From Candidatus Heimdallarchaeota archaeon (lineage in GTDB: Archaea; Asgardarchaeota; Heimdallarchaeia; JABLTI01): 32,000 nt of DNA. A program made the translations under genes and the position numbers. Shown here piece after piece: positions 5,934 through 10,298 of this stretch (position 1 is its first letter; every line of letters starts with the position of its first letter). The notes beneath the pieces were generated by a model. The model was given only the letters and a program-made list of their open reading frames with translations. It did not search any database and was not told the origin of the DNA. The stretch is taken from assembly GCA_030614005.1 (NCBI GenBank), contig JAUWKS010000018.1, forward strand, positions 1-32,000, in the 5' to 3' direction.

Positions 5934-7214
5934 TTGGCTGATCTTAAAAAGAAATTACTAATATCAGATGATAAGCTAAAAACTATCAATGACTTCTTTC
6001 TCAAAGAAGATAATCCATTGATTAATGATTTATTAGCCGTCGTTGAAAAATACGGTGGAGTAGATGAAATAAATAAAAAAGCTAACGAAGCACGCCAAAT
6101 GGATACTTTGCTAGCTAAATTGGAAAAAGTTAAACCAGAATATATCAAAGACTTGAACTGGTTAACGGAACAACGCGATAATGATGCATTCATTAGCCTT
6201 GCAGATTATCGTAAGAAGATTCTCGGTGATAAAGCTGCTACAATGACTTTTAATGAGTCAACAGCAGTTACGCTCGAAATAAGCGCCTGCCAATACTTTC
6301 CATTCTTAATTGCTGAAGCAAAAAAAGCAATTGAGAACCAAGACTTAATGCCCGCAAGATATATTCGCGTTAGGAAAATGAAAGAGCAAGAAGAAGACGG
6401 TGATTTACTTGCAATGGCTGTAGCAATGCAAATTGTTGGTGCATCTTACGTAGAAACATTGGACACAAAAGGAACTGCTCCAGGACCAGATGGTCTGCCA
6501 GTAAATATTCACCTTGGTGGTCCAGCAACTATTACCGGCTATTTTGGTGGAGTTGGTCAACCAAATGATTTTGGGATTAAATGGGTTGACGAATTCTTGT
6601 ATTATTACACAAAATATGGTATTAAGCAAGTTTTGAACATCAATCCTGGTACCGTATTGCTTGGCTATATGTTACACAAATTAGGTGTTGATATGGAATT
6701 CAAAATCTCAGTTTATATGGGAAATGATAATCCATATGGGTGTTTCTGGACATTGATGACTGCTAAACTCTTTAGCAGAGAAGACGGAACAAGTCCATTG
6801 ATTGGTTTTAATCTATCAAATTCTGCTAACAATGAAACTATAGAAGCTACTGCAGACTTTAGAAAAGATTTTGGTTTTGAAGACATAGTTCGGTTTGAGC
6901 ATCATATAACTGAAACCTACAAGAGCATTGTGAGACAACCATACGATCGAACCGATGAACTTATTGAGTTAGCAAAGACAGTGAAGAATGTAAGTGCCAA
7001 ACACGAAGGTGGAAAAATGGCAATAGAAGAAAAACGTGAATATCAATCAGATATCTTGGACTACTTTAGAGATAAATCCGAAATAATTGAATCTGGTGAT
7101 ATGGATAATATGCAGATCAATTATCTAGACAAACATCATTCATTGAATTTCACTGCAGAAGCTTTGACCAAGAATGGTTTGTGCTTTATAGCTGCAAAGA
7201 ATTTACACAAATGA
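5934..7214 (+). CDS. Uncharacterised protein, 426 aa, probably an enzyme (alpha/beta barrel-like)
   Basis: Long ORF. AGGTGA RBS precedes the TTG start. Gly-rich and His/Glu/Asp-rich segments (LDTKG, GGVGQPN, FEHH, SAKHEGG). Ends 25 nt before the aldolase-Fae gene. Confidence 0.8.
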   Translation: MADLKKKLLISDDKLKTINDFFLKEDNPLINDLLAVVEKYGGVDEINKKANEARQMDTLLAKLEKVKPEYIKDLNWLTEQRDNDAFISLADYRKKILGDKAATMTFNESTAVTLEISACQYFPFLIAEAKKAIENQDLMPARYIRVRKMKEQEEDGDLLAMAVAMQIVGASYVETLDTKGTAPGPDGLPVNIHLGGPATITGYFGGVGQPNDFGIKWVDEFLYYYTKYGIKQVLNINPGTVLLGYMLHKLGVDMEFKISVYMGNDNPYGCFWTLMTAKLFSREDGTSPLIGFNLSNSANNETIEATADFRKDFGFEDIVRFEHHITETYKSIVRQPYDRTDELIELAKTVKNVSAKHEGGKMAIEEKREYQSDILDYFRDKSEIIESGDMDNMQINYLDKHHSLNFTAEALTKNGLCFIAAKNLHK

Positions 7215-7239
7215 ATAATGTTTATAGGAGCTAAAAATA

Positions 7240-8754
7240 TTGGCTAAATTCTTACCTGGAGGAGTAAGCCCAGCGTTGGTAACTCCTTTTACAAAAAAAG
7301 ATGAACTTGATGAAGAAGCCTATCGAAAACTGATTAGATTTGTTATCGATGACTTAGGTGTCACGGGGATTGTTCCCGCGGGTTCGACCGGTGAATTCTC
7401 CTCTCTCTTTTGGGATGAACAAAAGAGAGTGATAGAAATTGCTGTCGATGAAGCAAATGGAAAAGTAGATGTAATGGCTGGTACTGGAACCAGTGGAACT
7501 AAACGAACTATCGCAATGACCAAACATGCAAAAGATGTTGGTGCAGATGCTGCATTAGTTATTACTCCTTATTATATGAAACCGACTCAAAGAGGAATGT
7601 ACAAACACTATTCAACACTTGCAGACAAAGTAGATATGCCAATAATGTTGTATCAATTGCCAGCTTTAACAGATGTGGTTTTACCACGAATGGTTGTTGA
7701 AGATTTAGCAGTTGAACATGAGAATATTGTTGGTATGAAGTGTTCTTGGGGGAACATGGCTTATCTTATGGAAATACTCGAGAGAGTAAAACCTGTTGCT
7801 CCAGATTTCAAAATTTTATGTGGTTGGGATGAAATTGTATTCCCAGCGCTCGCTGCAGGTGTGGATGGTTGTATCCTTGCTTCAGCTAATTTCATTGGAG
7901 ACCATTGGGTTATAATTAAGAAATTGGTTGATGCTGGAAAAATGGAAGAAGCACGCAAAGCTGAAATGGTAATTCACAAATTAACCCGTATTGCCGTGAA
8001 AACAGGTGGTGCAGGAGCTAAAGAAGCCCTTAATATGATGGGCGTGAAAGTTCGAAAACCAAGATTACCATTAGAAATCGGTGGAAGTATCAGTCACGAG
8101 CTTCGTTCTGAATTGCGTCTCGAACTTGAGAGAATTGGTAAGATCAAGAAAGAAGTTAAAATTGCTTTACCAGAAACCAAAGAGAAAATCGAAGAACGAT
8201 TTGGAGCGGTGGAAATTTCACTCGAAACAATACTCCAAAACAAACTCTTGGTTGGTGAAGGCTTCTTTGGTGGCGATCGACCAGAAATGGCCCACATAGA
8301 TCTTCTAATCGGTCCTCGCGATGGACCAGTCGGAGTAGCTTTTGCAAAAGGCATTGCTTTAGTGAAAGACGATCCTTCTACAGTCGAAGGACACGAACCA
8401 TTGCTAGCACTTCTTGAAACCAATGAGTCAGTGAAACCTGAGACATTGTTAGTTCCTAAAGTATTCATTCGAAATCTACGACAGGCTGCGATGGTCTTTG
8501 GACCAGTACAATCAGGTGTTGCTAAAGCAGTTATAGAATGTGTGAAAGATGGTTTTATTCCTGAAAAGTATGTTAAAGATCTAGTTATTATTGCTAGTGT
8601 CTTTGTACATCCTACAGCTGTCTCGAGAAATCGAGTATATGTGAATAACAAAAAAGCAACTGTTATGGCTATTAGAAACGCCATAGAAGGAAAACCAGAT
8701 TTAGACTACTTATTTGATGCACCCGGAAGGCATCCACTAAAGAATGAACCTTAG
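7240..8754 (+). CDS. fae: DHDPS-family class I aldolase fused to a C-terminal formaldehyde-activating enzyme (Fae) domain
   Basis: N-domain: ALVTPF, GSTGE, TPYY, MLYQLP and Schiff-base Lys in VGMKCS. C-domain from about 8245: LVGEG..AHIDLLIGPRDG..KPETLLVPKV..RQAAMVFGPVQSGVAKAV..VFVHP, matching the Fae family. AGGAG RBS before the TTG. Confidence 0.9.
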   Translation: MAKFLPGGVSPALVTPFTKKDELDEEAYRKLIRFVIDDLGVTGIVPAGSTGEFSSLFWDEQKRVIEIAVDEANGKVDVMAGTGTSGTKRTIAMTKHAKDVGADAALVITPYYMKPTQRGMYKHYSTLADKVDMPIMLYQLPALTDVVLPRMVVEDLAVEHENIVGMKCSWGNMAYLMEILERVKPVAPDFKILCGWDEIVFPALAAGVDGCILASANFIGDHWVIIKKLVDAGKMEEARKAEMVIHKLTRIAVKTGGAGAKEALNMMGVKVRKPRLPLEIGGSISHELRSELRLELERIGKIKKEVKIALPETKEKIEERFGAVEISLETILQNKLLVGEGFFGGDRPEMAHIDLLIGPRDGPVGVAFAKGIALVKDDPSTVEGHEPLLALLETNESVKPETLLVPKVFIRNLRQAAMVFGPVQSGVAKAVIECVKDGFIPEKYVKDLVIIASVFVHPTAVSRNRVYVNNKKATVMAIRNAIEGKPDLDYLFDAPGRHPLKNEP

Positions 8755-8781
8755 ATTTCATTCTTTTCTTTCTCTTTTTTG
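8755..8781 (+). terminator. T-rich archaeal-type terminator
   Basis: atttcattcttttctttctctttttt right after the stop codon. Confidence 0.5.
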
Positions 8782-8867
8782 AGTAAACAATTTTTTTAAT
8801 CTACTCAGTTCTTGGAAAAATTACTAATTCTTTTATAGTTGATTATCTAAAGATAGGTTGTAGAATA

Positions 8868-9013: not shown

Positions 9014-10298
9014 ATGAATGTGAGTTTACTAACTATATTAGCAATAGTCTATTTGGTAATAGCAATTATTTCAATAATCTATTTCATTTTAATAACATTT
9101 GAAAGACCAGATATATTATTCCAAGAAGAATTCGGAAAATTATCAGAAGAACCTTTTGTCAGTATCATTGTCCCAACATACAATGAAGAAAATAACATTT
9201 TGACTTGTCTACACTCCCTTAAAATGCTAGACTATTCAAATTATGAAATAATCCTTTCTGACGGCGGTTCAAATGATAGAACAGTAGAACTAGCAAAACC
9301 CTATGTTGACAAAGTTCTTGTTGAGGAAACTTTGCCTGAAGGTTGGATTGGAAAAAATTATGGTTGCCACATTGCAAGTGAAATTGCAAAAGGAGAAATA
9401 TTACTCTTTACAGATGCAGACACCTTTCATCGGCGTGATTCCCTTAAGAAAACAGTTAGTGTTCTTCTGCAAAAGAATGCTGGGCTACTGTCGATGATGC
9501 CTTACCAGCGAGTAGAAAAATGGTGGGAAAGTATTGTACCAATTTATTTCTTTCTTTCTCTCTCATTTAGCCTCAGAAGGTAAGAAAAATATAAATGATC
9601 CAAATAAGCCAACTAACTTTCTAGCTATTGGACAATATCTACTGTTTACTCGAGAAGCTTATGAGAAAATCGGTGGACATGTACGTCTGAAAGGGTCTAT
9701 AATTGAAGATTTTGCGTTTGCTCGAGTGGTAAAAACGCAATTGAATTCACTCTATTTTATGGATAGTCACAAGTTGGTTGCAGTTCGAATGTATCCAGAT
9801 TCTCCAAGACATATGTGGACCGGATTCAAAAAATGTCTCTACGCTGGAACAAAATTCACTCCAAATAAAAGAATAATCTATATTATTTTTTCAGCAATCT
9901 GGGCGATTACTTCACCAATAACAATCGTTTTAGCAATATTATACAGTAATTGGGTTTGGATATTGGTATTCAGTTTGATAATGCTAGTCTATCCTGTTCA
10001 AATGATGATCTATTGGCATGGAAAAGGAAAGCATTTTTATTTATCTTATCTCTTCTTTCCCGTGCTATTGATGGCATTCCTCTTTACGCTGGGAGTGTCA
10101 ACACTTGAGATTCTTATAACAAAGAAAACTACTTGGAAGGGAAGGACTTACTCTCCTGATCTTAAAGCCGGTTTAAATGATAATGGAAAATATGGACTTG
10201 AAGTTGGGGAGATAGTCTTTGAAGACCCTCCTCTAGACCCTGACTTTAATTTTACTCCACAATCAAAAATGGCTAGCGAATTATTTCAAGATTCTTAA
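9014..10298 (+). pseudogene. Glycosyltransferase family 2 (CrtQ/HpnB-like, membrane-bound), frameshifted into two ORFs (9014..9583 and 9534..10298)
   Basis: ORF1 has SIIVPTYNEE, DGGSND, GWIGKNYGC and FTDAD. ORF2 has AIGQYLLFTREAYEKIGG, IEDFAFAR and C-terminal TM helices. The frame changes within (TTTC)3 at 9547-9558, and removing one unit gives one 426-aa ORF. Confidence 0.85.
9547..9564 (+). repeat. Short simple-sequence tract (TTTC)3 followed by (TC)3 at the frameshift site
   Basis: Sequence tttctttctttctctctc read directly at 9547-9564. Confidence 0.85.

What the first reader, a model, noticed from the sequence alone, without database searches (positions are those of the whole stretch)
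7240..8754. DHDPS-like aldolase fused to Fae: candidate formaldehyde-pyruvate aldolase channelling C1 to or from H4MPT
Seen: one chain joins a class I aldolase barrel (GSTGE, Tyr in YQLP, Lys in GMKCS) to a complete Fae domain that keeps its catalytic His (AHIDL, about 8293). After the catalytic Tyr the sequence is YQLPALTD, whereas DapA has YNVPSRTG, so the Arg138 that binds the aspartate-semialdehyde carboxylate is Leu here. Established: Fae interconverts formaldehyde + H4MPT and methylene-H4MPT, and the known Fae-Hps fusion couples it to a formaldehyde aldolase. Inference: this is an analogous fusion using pyruvate (pyruvate + HCHO <-> 4-hydroxy-2-oxobutanoate, the keto acid of homoserine). 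That would be a natural C1 assimilation or homoserine catabolism route, chemistry I know mainly from synthetic pathway designs.
Basis: partly seen in the sequence, partly recalled or inferred. Interest (0 to 1): 0.88.

Follow-up and report, generated by a model that had tools for sequence, protein, structure and literature searches.

The report
Aldolase-Fae fusion enzyme, mislabelled DapA
This Asgard archaeal gene fuses a pyruvate-type aldolase to a formaldehyde-activating (Fae) domain; it belongs to a widespread, unstudied family that databases mislabel as the lysine enzyme DapA and that probably moves a one-carbon unit between a pterin carrier and a 2-oxo acid.

Summary
Window 7240-8754 (+) is one 504-aa chain: a DHDPS-family class I aldolase (aa 7-293) joined to a complete Fae domain (aa 338-493). 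It is not DapA. The Arg138 position is Leu here and is never Arg in 63 relatives. No dapB, asd, aspartate kinase or homoserine dehydrogenase was found in the 90%-complete host genome.

The fusion is a large family in Asgard archaea, Bathyarchaeia and Chloroflexota. In 250 Asgard genomes it occurs only in families that carry Mch, an H4MPT marker. It has a conserved upstream partner: either a 315-aa TIM barrel ("c11") or, as here, a 426-aa protein with a similar U32-like barrel (5934-7214). In bacteria with no Fae domain, c11 instead sits beside a second PanB copy, separate from the panB-panE pair.

Best reading: a PanB-like hydroxymethyl transfer (methylene-pterin + 2-oxo acid <-> 4-hydroxy-2-oxo acid), run through an Fae site and a Schiff-base aldolase site. 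Pyruvate giving 4-hydroxy-2-oxobutanoate is the likeliest pair. Substrate and direction are inferred, not shown.

No paper on this fusion was found. This scan has noted the family at least 23 times on other DNA. This window holds the single-chain form with a complete Fae site.

The parts
5934..7214 (+). Upstream partner gene 'c6' (426 aa). It has an N-terminal helical bundle (aa 1-105) and a U32-like / class-II-aldolase-like TIM barrel (aa 107-420). It has no Pfam or NCBIfam family.
   Evidence: No family match. It lies directly upstream on the same strand as the fusion in families f1 (3/3), f13 (8/9) and f26 (1/1). The model has pLDDT 89.6. Its barrel aligns with TM 0.74 (rmsd 2.9 over 267 residues) to an Atlas 'Peptidase U32 family' cluster. 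Its best PDB hits are class II FBP aldolases, the same set that c11 hits.
7226..7230 (+). AGGAG ribosome-binding site, 9 nt before the TTG start. The gap between the c6 stop codon and the fusion start is only 25 nt.
   Evidence: Read directly from the sequence.
7240..8754 (+). The DHDPS-Fae fusion ORF (504 aa).
7258..8118 (+). Class I (Schiff-base) aldolase domain of the DHDPS/NAL family. Key residues: GSTGE (aa 48-52), Tyr138 (nt 7651-7653), Leu143 at the DapA Arg138 position (nt 7666-7668), Lys167 (nt 7738-7740) and GWDEI (aa 195-199).
   Evidence: PF00701 at 3e-73. Motif columns compared with E. coli DapA, NanA, YagE and YjhH.
8119..8250 (+). Linker of about 44 aa between the two domains. 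It contains a conserved ELRxELE(K/R)xGKI helix.
   Evidence: Alignment A4.
8251..8721 (+). Fae (formaldehyde-activating enzyme) domain. It keeps AHIDL (His352, nt 8293-8295), LLETNESVKP, FGPVQ and the C-terminal RHP motif.
   Evidence: PF08714 at 1.5e-48 and TIGR03126 at 167 bits. It is 43% identical to the Fae domain of the host's Fae-Hps.
8760..8800 (+). T-rich stretch (runs of T6 and T7) after the stop codon. It is a likely archaeal terminator for the two-gene unit.
   Evidence: Read directly from the sequence. Function is inferred.

Best explanation
The gene encodes a bifunctional enzyme that works like PanB but is built from different parts. The Fae domain interconverts 5,10-methylene-H4MPT with H4MPT and bound or free formaldehyde. 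The fused class I aldolase domain holds a 2-oxo acid as a Lys167 Schiff base or enamine and adds the formaldehyde to its C3, or releases it by retro-aldol cleavage. The net reaction is methylene-pterin + 2-oxo acid + H2O <-> pterin + 4-hydroxy-2-oxo acid. Pyruvate giving 4-hydroxy-2-oxobutanoate is the most likely pair, because DHDPS-family enzymes use pyruvate.

The enzyme forms a two-gene unit with a U32-like TIM-barrel protein (c6 here, c11 in other lineages). That protein probably makes or consumes the 4-hydroxy-2-oxo acid.

Shown: the architecture, intact catalytic motifs in both domains, loss of the DapA-specific Arg, absence of the DapA pathway context, co-occurrence with H4MPT genes, and the alternation of the fusion with a second PanB copy next to c11.

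Inferred: the chemistry, the identity of the oxo acid, channelling between the two sites, the direction of the reaction, and the partner's role.
For: 1. Domains and motifs are intact: Lys167, Tyr138 and GSTGE in the aldolase domain; AHIDL, GPxQ and RHP in the Fae domain.

2. It is not DapA. The Arg138 position is Leu here and C, V or L in all 63 relatives examined. dapB, asd, aspartate kinase and homoserine dehydrogenase were not found in the 90%-complete genome. In the tree, the fusion N-domains form one clade (98/94 support) apart from E. coli DapA.

3. The host has H4MPT genes: Mch in two copies, beta-RFAP synthase and Fae-Hps. By family, the fusion occurs only where Mch does: f1 4/4, f10 56/59, f13 53/54, f16 18/19, f17 3/3. 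It is missing from the Mch-negative families f2, f3, f4, f6, f20 and f23.

4. Both sites look selected. Lineages with two tandem copies split the Fae motifs in a complementary way. Copy A loses the His and the RHPF tail. Copy B loses GPAQ and part of ILEPNL. Both copies keep the aldolase Lys and Tyr. The A and B copies form old, separate clades.

5. The partner gene is conserved. Either c6 or c11 lies directly upstream in 9 families, in Bathyarchaeia and in Chloroflexota.

6. The PanB analogy rests on gene context. In 15 of the 80 c11 loci examined (Bipolaricaulota, Fraserbacteria and others) c11 is followed by PanB, sometimes with FTHFS or MTHFR nearby. Five such c11-carrying bacterial genomes have no Fae domain anywhere. 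Four of them carry two PanB copies, one next to panE and the other next to c11. The c11-adjacent copies form their own clade, 50-55% identical to the panE-adjacent copy.
Against: - There is no biochemical evidence for any member of the family.
- The specificity motifs PAL and GWDEI match E. coli NanA (PAL, GYDEI) and YagE (PAL, GYDDH), which bind larger hydroxylated aldehydes. The acceptor may therefore not be formaldehyde.
- A Chloroflexota carrier (G250) showed neither Mch nor beta-RFAP synthase, and a Thorarchaeota-type genome (G128) showed no beta-RFAP synthase although it has Mch.
- The partner barrel has no assigned function, and sequence similarity between c6 and c11 is not significant (hhalign E 0.013, probability 3%).
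- The family-level counts come from related, incomplete MAGs and are not independent.
Confidence: 0.55

Rival explanations
1. It is a retro-aldol lyase for a larger 4-hydroxy-2-oxo or 2-keto-3-deoxy acid, of the NAL or KDG-aldolase type. On this reading the Fae domain does not share a substrate with the aldolase. It would scavenge formaldehyde made elsewhere, or mainly serve as an oligomerisation module.
For: The motifs PAL (after Tyr138) and GWDEI match E. coli NanA (PAL, GYDEI) and YagE (PAL, GYDDH) rather than DapA. In E. coli, yagE and yjhH each sit next to a dehydratase, so the barrel partner could supply a keto-deoxy acid.
Against: The fusion is kept across two domains of life, and its Fae motifs are selected even when split between two paralogues. 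c11 alternates between this fusion and a PanB copy, and PanB is a C1-transfer enzyme. The host already has Fae-Hps for scavenging. The NanA and KDG-aldolase HMM scores are far below their cut-offs.
Confidence: 0.15
2. It is a non-homologous replacement for PanB proper. The acceptor would be 2-oxoisovalerate and the product ketopantoate, feeding coenzyme A synthesis in H4MPT-using organisms.
For: c11 pairs with PanB in bacteria. PanB was not found in the fusion-bearing families f17 (0/3), f19 (0/5) and f12 (0/1), nor in Chloroflexota G250.
Against: The host has its own panB-panE cluster on contig C81. PanB co-occurs with the fusion in f1 4/4, f10 51/59, f13 38/54 and f16 18/19. The c11-adjacent PanB is an extra copy in genomes that already have a panB-panE pair, so the c11 module is probably not pantoate synthesis. 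No DHDPS-family enzyme is known to use a branched donor (from my own knowledge).
Confidence: 0.1
3. It feeds homoserine and threonine synthesis: pyruvate + C1 gives 4-hydroxy-2-oxobutanoate, which gives homoserine. This would replace the aspartate route that the host lacks.
For: The host has a good ThrC (NF006050, 552 bits) but no aspartate kinase, asd, homoserine dehydrogenase or canonical ThrB was found. Homoserine dehydrogenase is rare in the fusion families f1, f10, f16, f17 and f24, yet ThrC is present there.
Against: The same 'ThrC without Hom' pattern occurs in f18, f20 and f23, which have no fusion. In f13, 12 genomes have both the fusion and Hom. No aminotransferase or kinase is linked to the locus. 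The pattern is confounded with phylogeny and with H4MPT use.
Confidence: 0.12
4. It is a genuine DapA (4-hydroxy-tetrahydrodipicolinate synthase) that happens to be fused to Fae.
For: TIGR00674 scores 214.6 bits, just above its 206.15 cut-off. The best solved relatives are Aquifex and M. jannaschii DapA. Public records name it DapA.
Against: Arg138 is missing family-wide. dapB, asd and aspartate kinase were not found in the host. The fusion clade is separate from E. coli DapA.
Confidence: 0.03

Closest known systems
Archaeal bifunctional Fae-Hps (5,6,7,8-tetrahydromethanopterin hydro-lyase / 3-hexulose-6-phosphate synthase, NF009833)
   Same: An Fae domain is fused in one chain to an aldolase that makes or releases formaldehyde. 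The host itself carries one (412 aa, 513 bits).
   Different: Here the Fae domain is C-terminal, not N-terminal. The partner is a Schiff-base DHDPS-family barrel rather than an OMP-decarboxylase-family Hps. The carbon partner would therefore be a 2-oxo acid, not ribulose 5-phosphate.
PanB, ketopantoate hydroxymethyltransferase (PF02548)
   Same: The proposed net chemistry matches: hydroxymethyl transfer from a methylene-pterin to C3 of a 2-oxo acid. The conserved neighbour c11 also matches.
   Different: There is no homology. PanB is one metal-dependent domain that uses methylene-THF directly. This protein would split the reaction between an Fae site and a Lys-enamine site. The host also has its own PanB.
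DapA (4-hydroxy-tetrahydrodipicolinate synthase, TIGR00674)
   Same: It has the same fold, Lys, Tyr and GxTGE motif. It is about 40% identical to thermophile DapAs, and its HMM score is just above the cut-off.
   Different: It has no Arg138, no pathway context, a separate clade and an added Fae domain.
N-acetylneuraminate lyase NanA and the 2-keto-3-deoxy-acid aldolases YagE/YjhH
   Same: The PAL motif after the catalytic Tyr and a G-aromatic-D-E/D motif are shared.
   Different: The HMM scores are far below the family cut-offs. There is no sialic-acid or sugar-acid gene context in the window.

Membership tests
DapA (TIGR00674, 4-hydroxy-tetrahydrodipicolinate synthase) | HMM score above the curated cut-off | tested here: met
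   214.6 bits against 206.15, which is marginal.
DapA (TIGR00674, 4-hydroxy-tetrahydrodipicolinate synthase) | Schiff-base Lys161 and catalytic Tyr133 (E. coli numbering) | tested here: met
   Lys167 and Tyr138 align with the E. coli DapA residues.
DapA (TIGR00674, 4-hydroxy-tetrahydrodipicolinate synthase) | Arg138, which binds the carboxylate of aspartate semialdehyde | tested here: not met
   It is Leu143 here and C, V or L in all 63 fusion relatives. E. coli DapA has Arg in the same column.
DapA (TIGR00674, 4-hydroxy-tetrahydrodipicolinate synthase) | Pathway context: asd supplies the substrate and dapB consumes the product | tested here: not met
   TIGR00036 and PF02774 found nothing in the 90.4%-complete genome, and no aspartate kinase was found.
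Fae (PF08714 / TIGR03126) | HMM scores above the curated cut-offs over the whole domain | tested here: met
   165.3 bits against 27, and 167.4 against 118, covering profile positions 1-149 of 159.
Fae (PF08714 / TIGR03126) | Conserved His in AHIDL, plus the GPxQ and RHP motifs | tested here: met
   All are present. The domain is 43% identical to the host's Fae-Hps Fae domain. That these are the catalytic or binding residues is from my own memory of the Fae structure paper.
Fae (PF08714 / TIGR03126) | The host makes and uses H4MPT | tested here: met
   Mch in two copies and beta-RFAP synthase are present. The fusion is nested within Mch-positive Asgard families.
Fae (PF08714 / TIGR03126) | Formaldehyde + H4MPT condensation activity | not testable with these tools
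   This needs an enzyme assay.
Fae-Hps bifunctional enzyme (NF009833) | An Hps (OMP-decarboxylase family) domain fused to Fae | tested here: not met
   Only the Fae part matches (127.6 bits against a cut-off of 274). The other domain is DHDPS.
N-acetylneuraminate lyase / KDG aldolases | Family HMM score above the cut-off | tested here: not met
   NF003164 scores 176 against 281, TIGR00683 152 against 382, and NF040954 106 against 390.

The most novel reading that the evidence does not exclude
The fusion, together with its U32-like barrel partner, is a natural formaldehyde-pyruvate (4-hydroxy-2-oxobutanoate) aldolase module wired to H4MPT. That would be a so-far undescribed entry or exit between the C1 pool and C3/C4 central metabolism in Asgard archaea and Bathyarchaeia. 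Bacteria would run an equivalent module with a second PanB copy and THF. This chemistry is otherwise known mainly from engineered pathways.
Probability: 0.35. Interest if true: 0.85.

Novelty: new variant of a known kind. Interest (0 to 1): 0.68.

Why it matters
Hundreds of species of abundant sediment archaea (Asgard, Bathyarchaeia) and some bacteria carry this enzyme, and automatic annotation calls it DapA. That label distorts reconstructions of lysine biosynthesis and hides a probable link between the Wood-Ljungdahl/H4MPT C1 pool and 2-oxo acids.

If the pyruvate + formaldehyde reading is right, it would be a natural version of the aldolase step used in synthetic formaldehyde-assimilation designs.

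This window's protein is a good first target for biochemistry. One chain carries the complete Fae site, whereas many relatives split it between two subunits.

Tried and rejected
1. Conserved neighbourhood from two single look-ups (Borrarchaeum, Bathyarchaeia) showed nothing obvious. It became clear only after 42 loci were compared.

2. The homoserine-gap argument was tested and found not specific. ThrC without Hom also occurs in fusion-free families, and Asd is common in f13 alongside the fusion.

3. The idea that the fusion replaces PanB was rejected for this host and for most families.

4. The idea that c11 is the missing ketopantoate reductase was rejected. ApbA/PanE is present in all genomes tested.

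5. Sequence homology between c6 and c11 gave only a weak collinear hhalign match (E 0.013, probability 3%). The link rests on predicted fold.

6. The large unknown genes upstream in Thorarchaeota-type loci (c2, c3) and the MBL-fold c5 show no relation to c6 or c11.

7. Neither the c6 nor the c11 profile matches any solved structure by sequence. The Atlas feature search for c6 gave nothing usable.

8. Five literature searches found no paper on a DHDPS-Fae fusion.

9. In the sequencing-run search, DNA holders are cold-seep and marine-sediment metagenomes. No RNA holder was listed.

10. In the N-domain tree, E. coli NanA attached inside the fusion clade on a branch of length 4.5. I treat this as a long-branch artefact.

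11. No complex prediction was run, because I do not claim that c6 binds the fusion.

Full report
**What is there.** Window 7240-8754 (+) is a 504-aa ORF with a TTG start. An AGGAG site lies 9 nt before the start, and the gap from the stop of the upstream gene (5934-7214) is only 25 nt. T-rich runs follow the fusion's stop codon, so the two genes look like one unit.

Pfam finds DHDPS (aa 7-293, 3e-73) and Fae (aa 338-493, 1.5e-48). NCBIfam gives dapA TIGR00674 214.6 bits, barely above its 206.15 cut-off, and one_C_fae 167 bits against 118.

**Not DapA.** I aligned the protein with the real E. coli proteins fetched from K-12.

| Protein | Motif after the catalytic Tyr | Second motif |
|---|---|---|
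| E. coli DapA | YNVPSR-TG | SGDDAS |
| E. coli NanA | YNIPAL-SG | GYDEI |
| E. coli YagE | YNFPAL-TG | GYDDH |
| This window | YQLPAL-TD | GWDEI |
| Wider fusion family | YNIPQ[CV]-TG | GHDE |

The Arg138 position is never Arg in 63 fusion proteins, while the Lys, the Tyr and GxTGE are kept. The host genome (3.6 Mb, 90.4% complete) gave no hit for dapB, asd (PF02774), homoserine dehydrogenase or aspartate kinase. Its two other DHDPS paralogues lack the Tyr or the Lys.

The best solved relatives are true DapAs of Aquifex and M. jannaschii, so the domain probably descends from a DapA-like ancestor. In a maximum-likelihood tree, however, all fusion N-domains form one clade (98/94 support) apart from E. 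coli DapA, YagE/YjhH and the host paralogues. NanA joins on a very long branch, and I discount that placement.

**The Fae half.** It is 43% identical to the Fae domain of the host's own Fae-Hps and keeps AHIDL, GPxQ and RHP. The host has Mch in two copies and beta-RFAP synthase.

In a sample of 250 genomes of the phylum, the fusion appears in families f1, f10, f12, f13, f16, f17, f19, f21, f24 and f26. All of these are Mch-positive. The Mch-negative families f2, f3, f4, f6, f20 and f23 have neither the fusion nor any DHDPS hit. Some Mch-positive families (f7, f11, f18, f22) lack the fusion, so the relation is nested rather than one-to-one. These genomes are related, incomplete MAGs, and the counts are not independent.

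**Family and paralogues.** The same architecture fills the top hits from Heimdall-, Hod-, Borr- and Promethe-archaeota and from Bathyarchaeia. It also occurs in Chloroflexota.

Families f10, f12 and f24 and the Chloroflexota carry two tandem copies.
- Copy A (about 465-477 aa) has lost the Fae His and the RHPF tail, but keeps ILEPNL and YGPxQ.
- Copy B (about 490-497 aa) keeps AHIDL and RHPF, but has lost GPAQ and part of ILEPNL.
- Both copies keep the aldolase Lys and Tyr.

The A and B copies form separate old clades that each span archaea and Chloroflexota. This complementary loss is what one expects if the Fae site lies at a subunit interface (that point is from my memory of the Fae structure). 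It argues that the Fae site is functional and under selection. The protein in this window is the undivided form with every motif.

**Partner gene.** I compared 42 loci. Two proteins take turns directly upstream.
- c6 is the 426-aa gene at 5934-7214. It is found in f1, f13 and f26.
- c11 is about 315 aa. It is found in Bathyarchaeia, f12, f16, f17, f21, f24 and Chloroflexota.

Their distributions in the phylum sample do not overlap: c11 was found 0/4 in f1, 0/54 in f13 and 0/59 in f10, against 17/19 in f16. Neither has a Pfam or NCBIfam family.

c11 is 65-70% identical between Asgard archaea and bacteria. Its model is a TIM barrel (pLDDT 86). The nearest folds are class II aldolases and U32 'peptidases', at modest TM scores.

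c6 models as a helical bundle followed by a TIM barrel (pLDDT 89.6). It hits the same class II aldolases and a 312-aa U32-family Atlas cluster at TM 0.74. Sequence similarity between c6 and c11 is not significant. I therefore call them fold-level equivalents, possibly distant homologues.

**The PanB clue.** c11 has at least 575 loci across GTDB genomes. Among the best 80, 32 have the fusion beside c11. In 15 others (Bipolaricaulota, Fraserbacteria, a Thermotogae MAG and some Chloroflexota) c11 is followed on the same strand by PanB. FTHFS or MTHFR is sometimes nearby.

Five c11-carrying bacterial genomes of this kind have no Fae domain at all. Four of them have two PanB copies, one next to panE and the other next to c11. 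The c11-adjacent copies form their own clade, 50-55% identical to the panE-adjacent copy of the same genome.

So c11 works with either an extra PanB or a DHDPS-Fae fusion. PanB transfers a hydroxymethyl group from methylene-THF to a 2-oxo acid. The simplest reading is that the fusion does the equivalent reaction: Fae handles the pterin-bound C1 unit and the aldolase handles the oxo acid.

**What it is probably not.** It is not a stand-in for PanB in coenzyme A synthesis. The host has a panB-panE cluster, and PanB co-occurs with the fusion in most families. A few fusion-bearing lineages lack PanB, which keeps that rival alive at a low level.

The attractive homoserine idea is not specifically supported. 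It rests on the host having ThrC but no aspartate kinase, asd or hom. The same gap exists in fusion-free families, and many f13 genomes have the fusion together with Asd or Hom.

**Open points.**
- The oxo acid is unknown. Pyruvate is inferred from family precedent.
- The direction of the reaction is unknown.
- The role of c6/c11 is unknown.
- The carrier used in Chloroflexota is unknown. Neither Mch nor beta-RFAP synthase was found in one such genome.
- The NanA-like specificity motifs leave room for a larger aldehyde.

**Novelty.** Five full-text searches found no paper on this fusion. Within this scan the family has been noted at least 23 times in 21 or more genomes, with follow-ups reaching similar readings. 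I derived the split-site and PanB points independently before reading those notes, and they agree.

What this window adds is the single-chain form with a complete Fae site, the c6 variant of the partner gene, and the test showing that the c11-adjacent PanB is a separate paralogue. DNA of this locus is held by cold-seep and marine-sediment metagenomes.

Noticed in passing
window 5934-7214 (+): This 426-aa gene has no family. It models as a helical bundle plus a U32-like TIM barrel, and it is conserved directly upstream of the fusion in three Asgard families. The family is narrow: 579 hits, mostly fragments.
   Followed up: yes
window 9014-9583 and 9534-10298 (+): Two overlapping ORFs in different frames carry the N-terminal and C-terminal halves of a family-2 glycosyltransferase (PF00535, then PF13632). 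This looks like a frameshifted or split gene, or an assembly error.
   Followed up: no
G000 contigs C54 (L002:1501-2403:+) and C4 (L003:1402-2376:-): The host's two stand-alone DHDPS paralogues are both atypical. One has Cys in place of the catalytic Tyr. The other has Ile in place of the Schiff-base Lys.
   Followed up: partly
G000 whole genome; ThrC at L009:1495-2700:-: Threonine synthase is present (NF006050, 552 bits, with an N-terminal zinc ribbon). Aspartate kinase, asd, homoserine dehydrogenase and canonical ThrB were not found. The same 'ThrC without Hom' pattern is common in several Asgard families.
   Followed up: partly
Asgard families f2 and f4 (same class as the host): Homoserine dehydrogenase was found in 18/25 and 14/17 genomes. 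The Asd C-terminal domain PF02774 was found in only 1/25 and 1/17. Either their Asd is divergent or their Hom has another role.
   Followed up: no
L082, L085, L092, L099 (Bipolaricaulota, Fraserbacteria, Thermotogae MAGs): A conserved bacterial module was seen: two thiolase-like genes and two DUF35/ChsH2 OB-fold genes, then c11, a small unknown gene and a second PanB copy. A malic enzyme-PTA fusion and Fer4/CCG proteins lie beside it.
   Followed up: partly
L044-L060 (family f10), upstream of the tandem fusions: Two large proteins without any family (about 815 and 880 aa) and an MBL-fold protein are conserved upstream of the A+B fusion pair. In these lineages neither c6 nor c11 lies beside the pair, and c11 was not found in any of the 59 f10 genomes sampled (c6 was not searched genome-wide).
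   Followed up: partly
L061 and L062 (Chloroflexota), between the two fusion genes: A 64-aa DUF6485 gene sits between copy A and copy B of the fusion. A transaldolase/FSA gene precedes c11.
   Followed up: no
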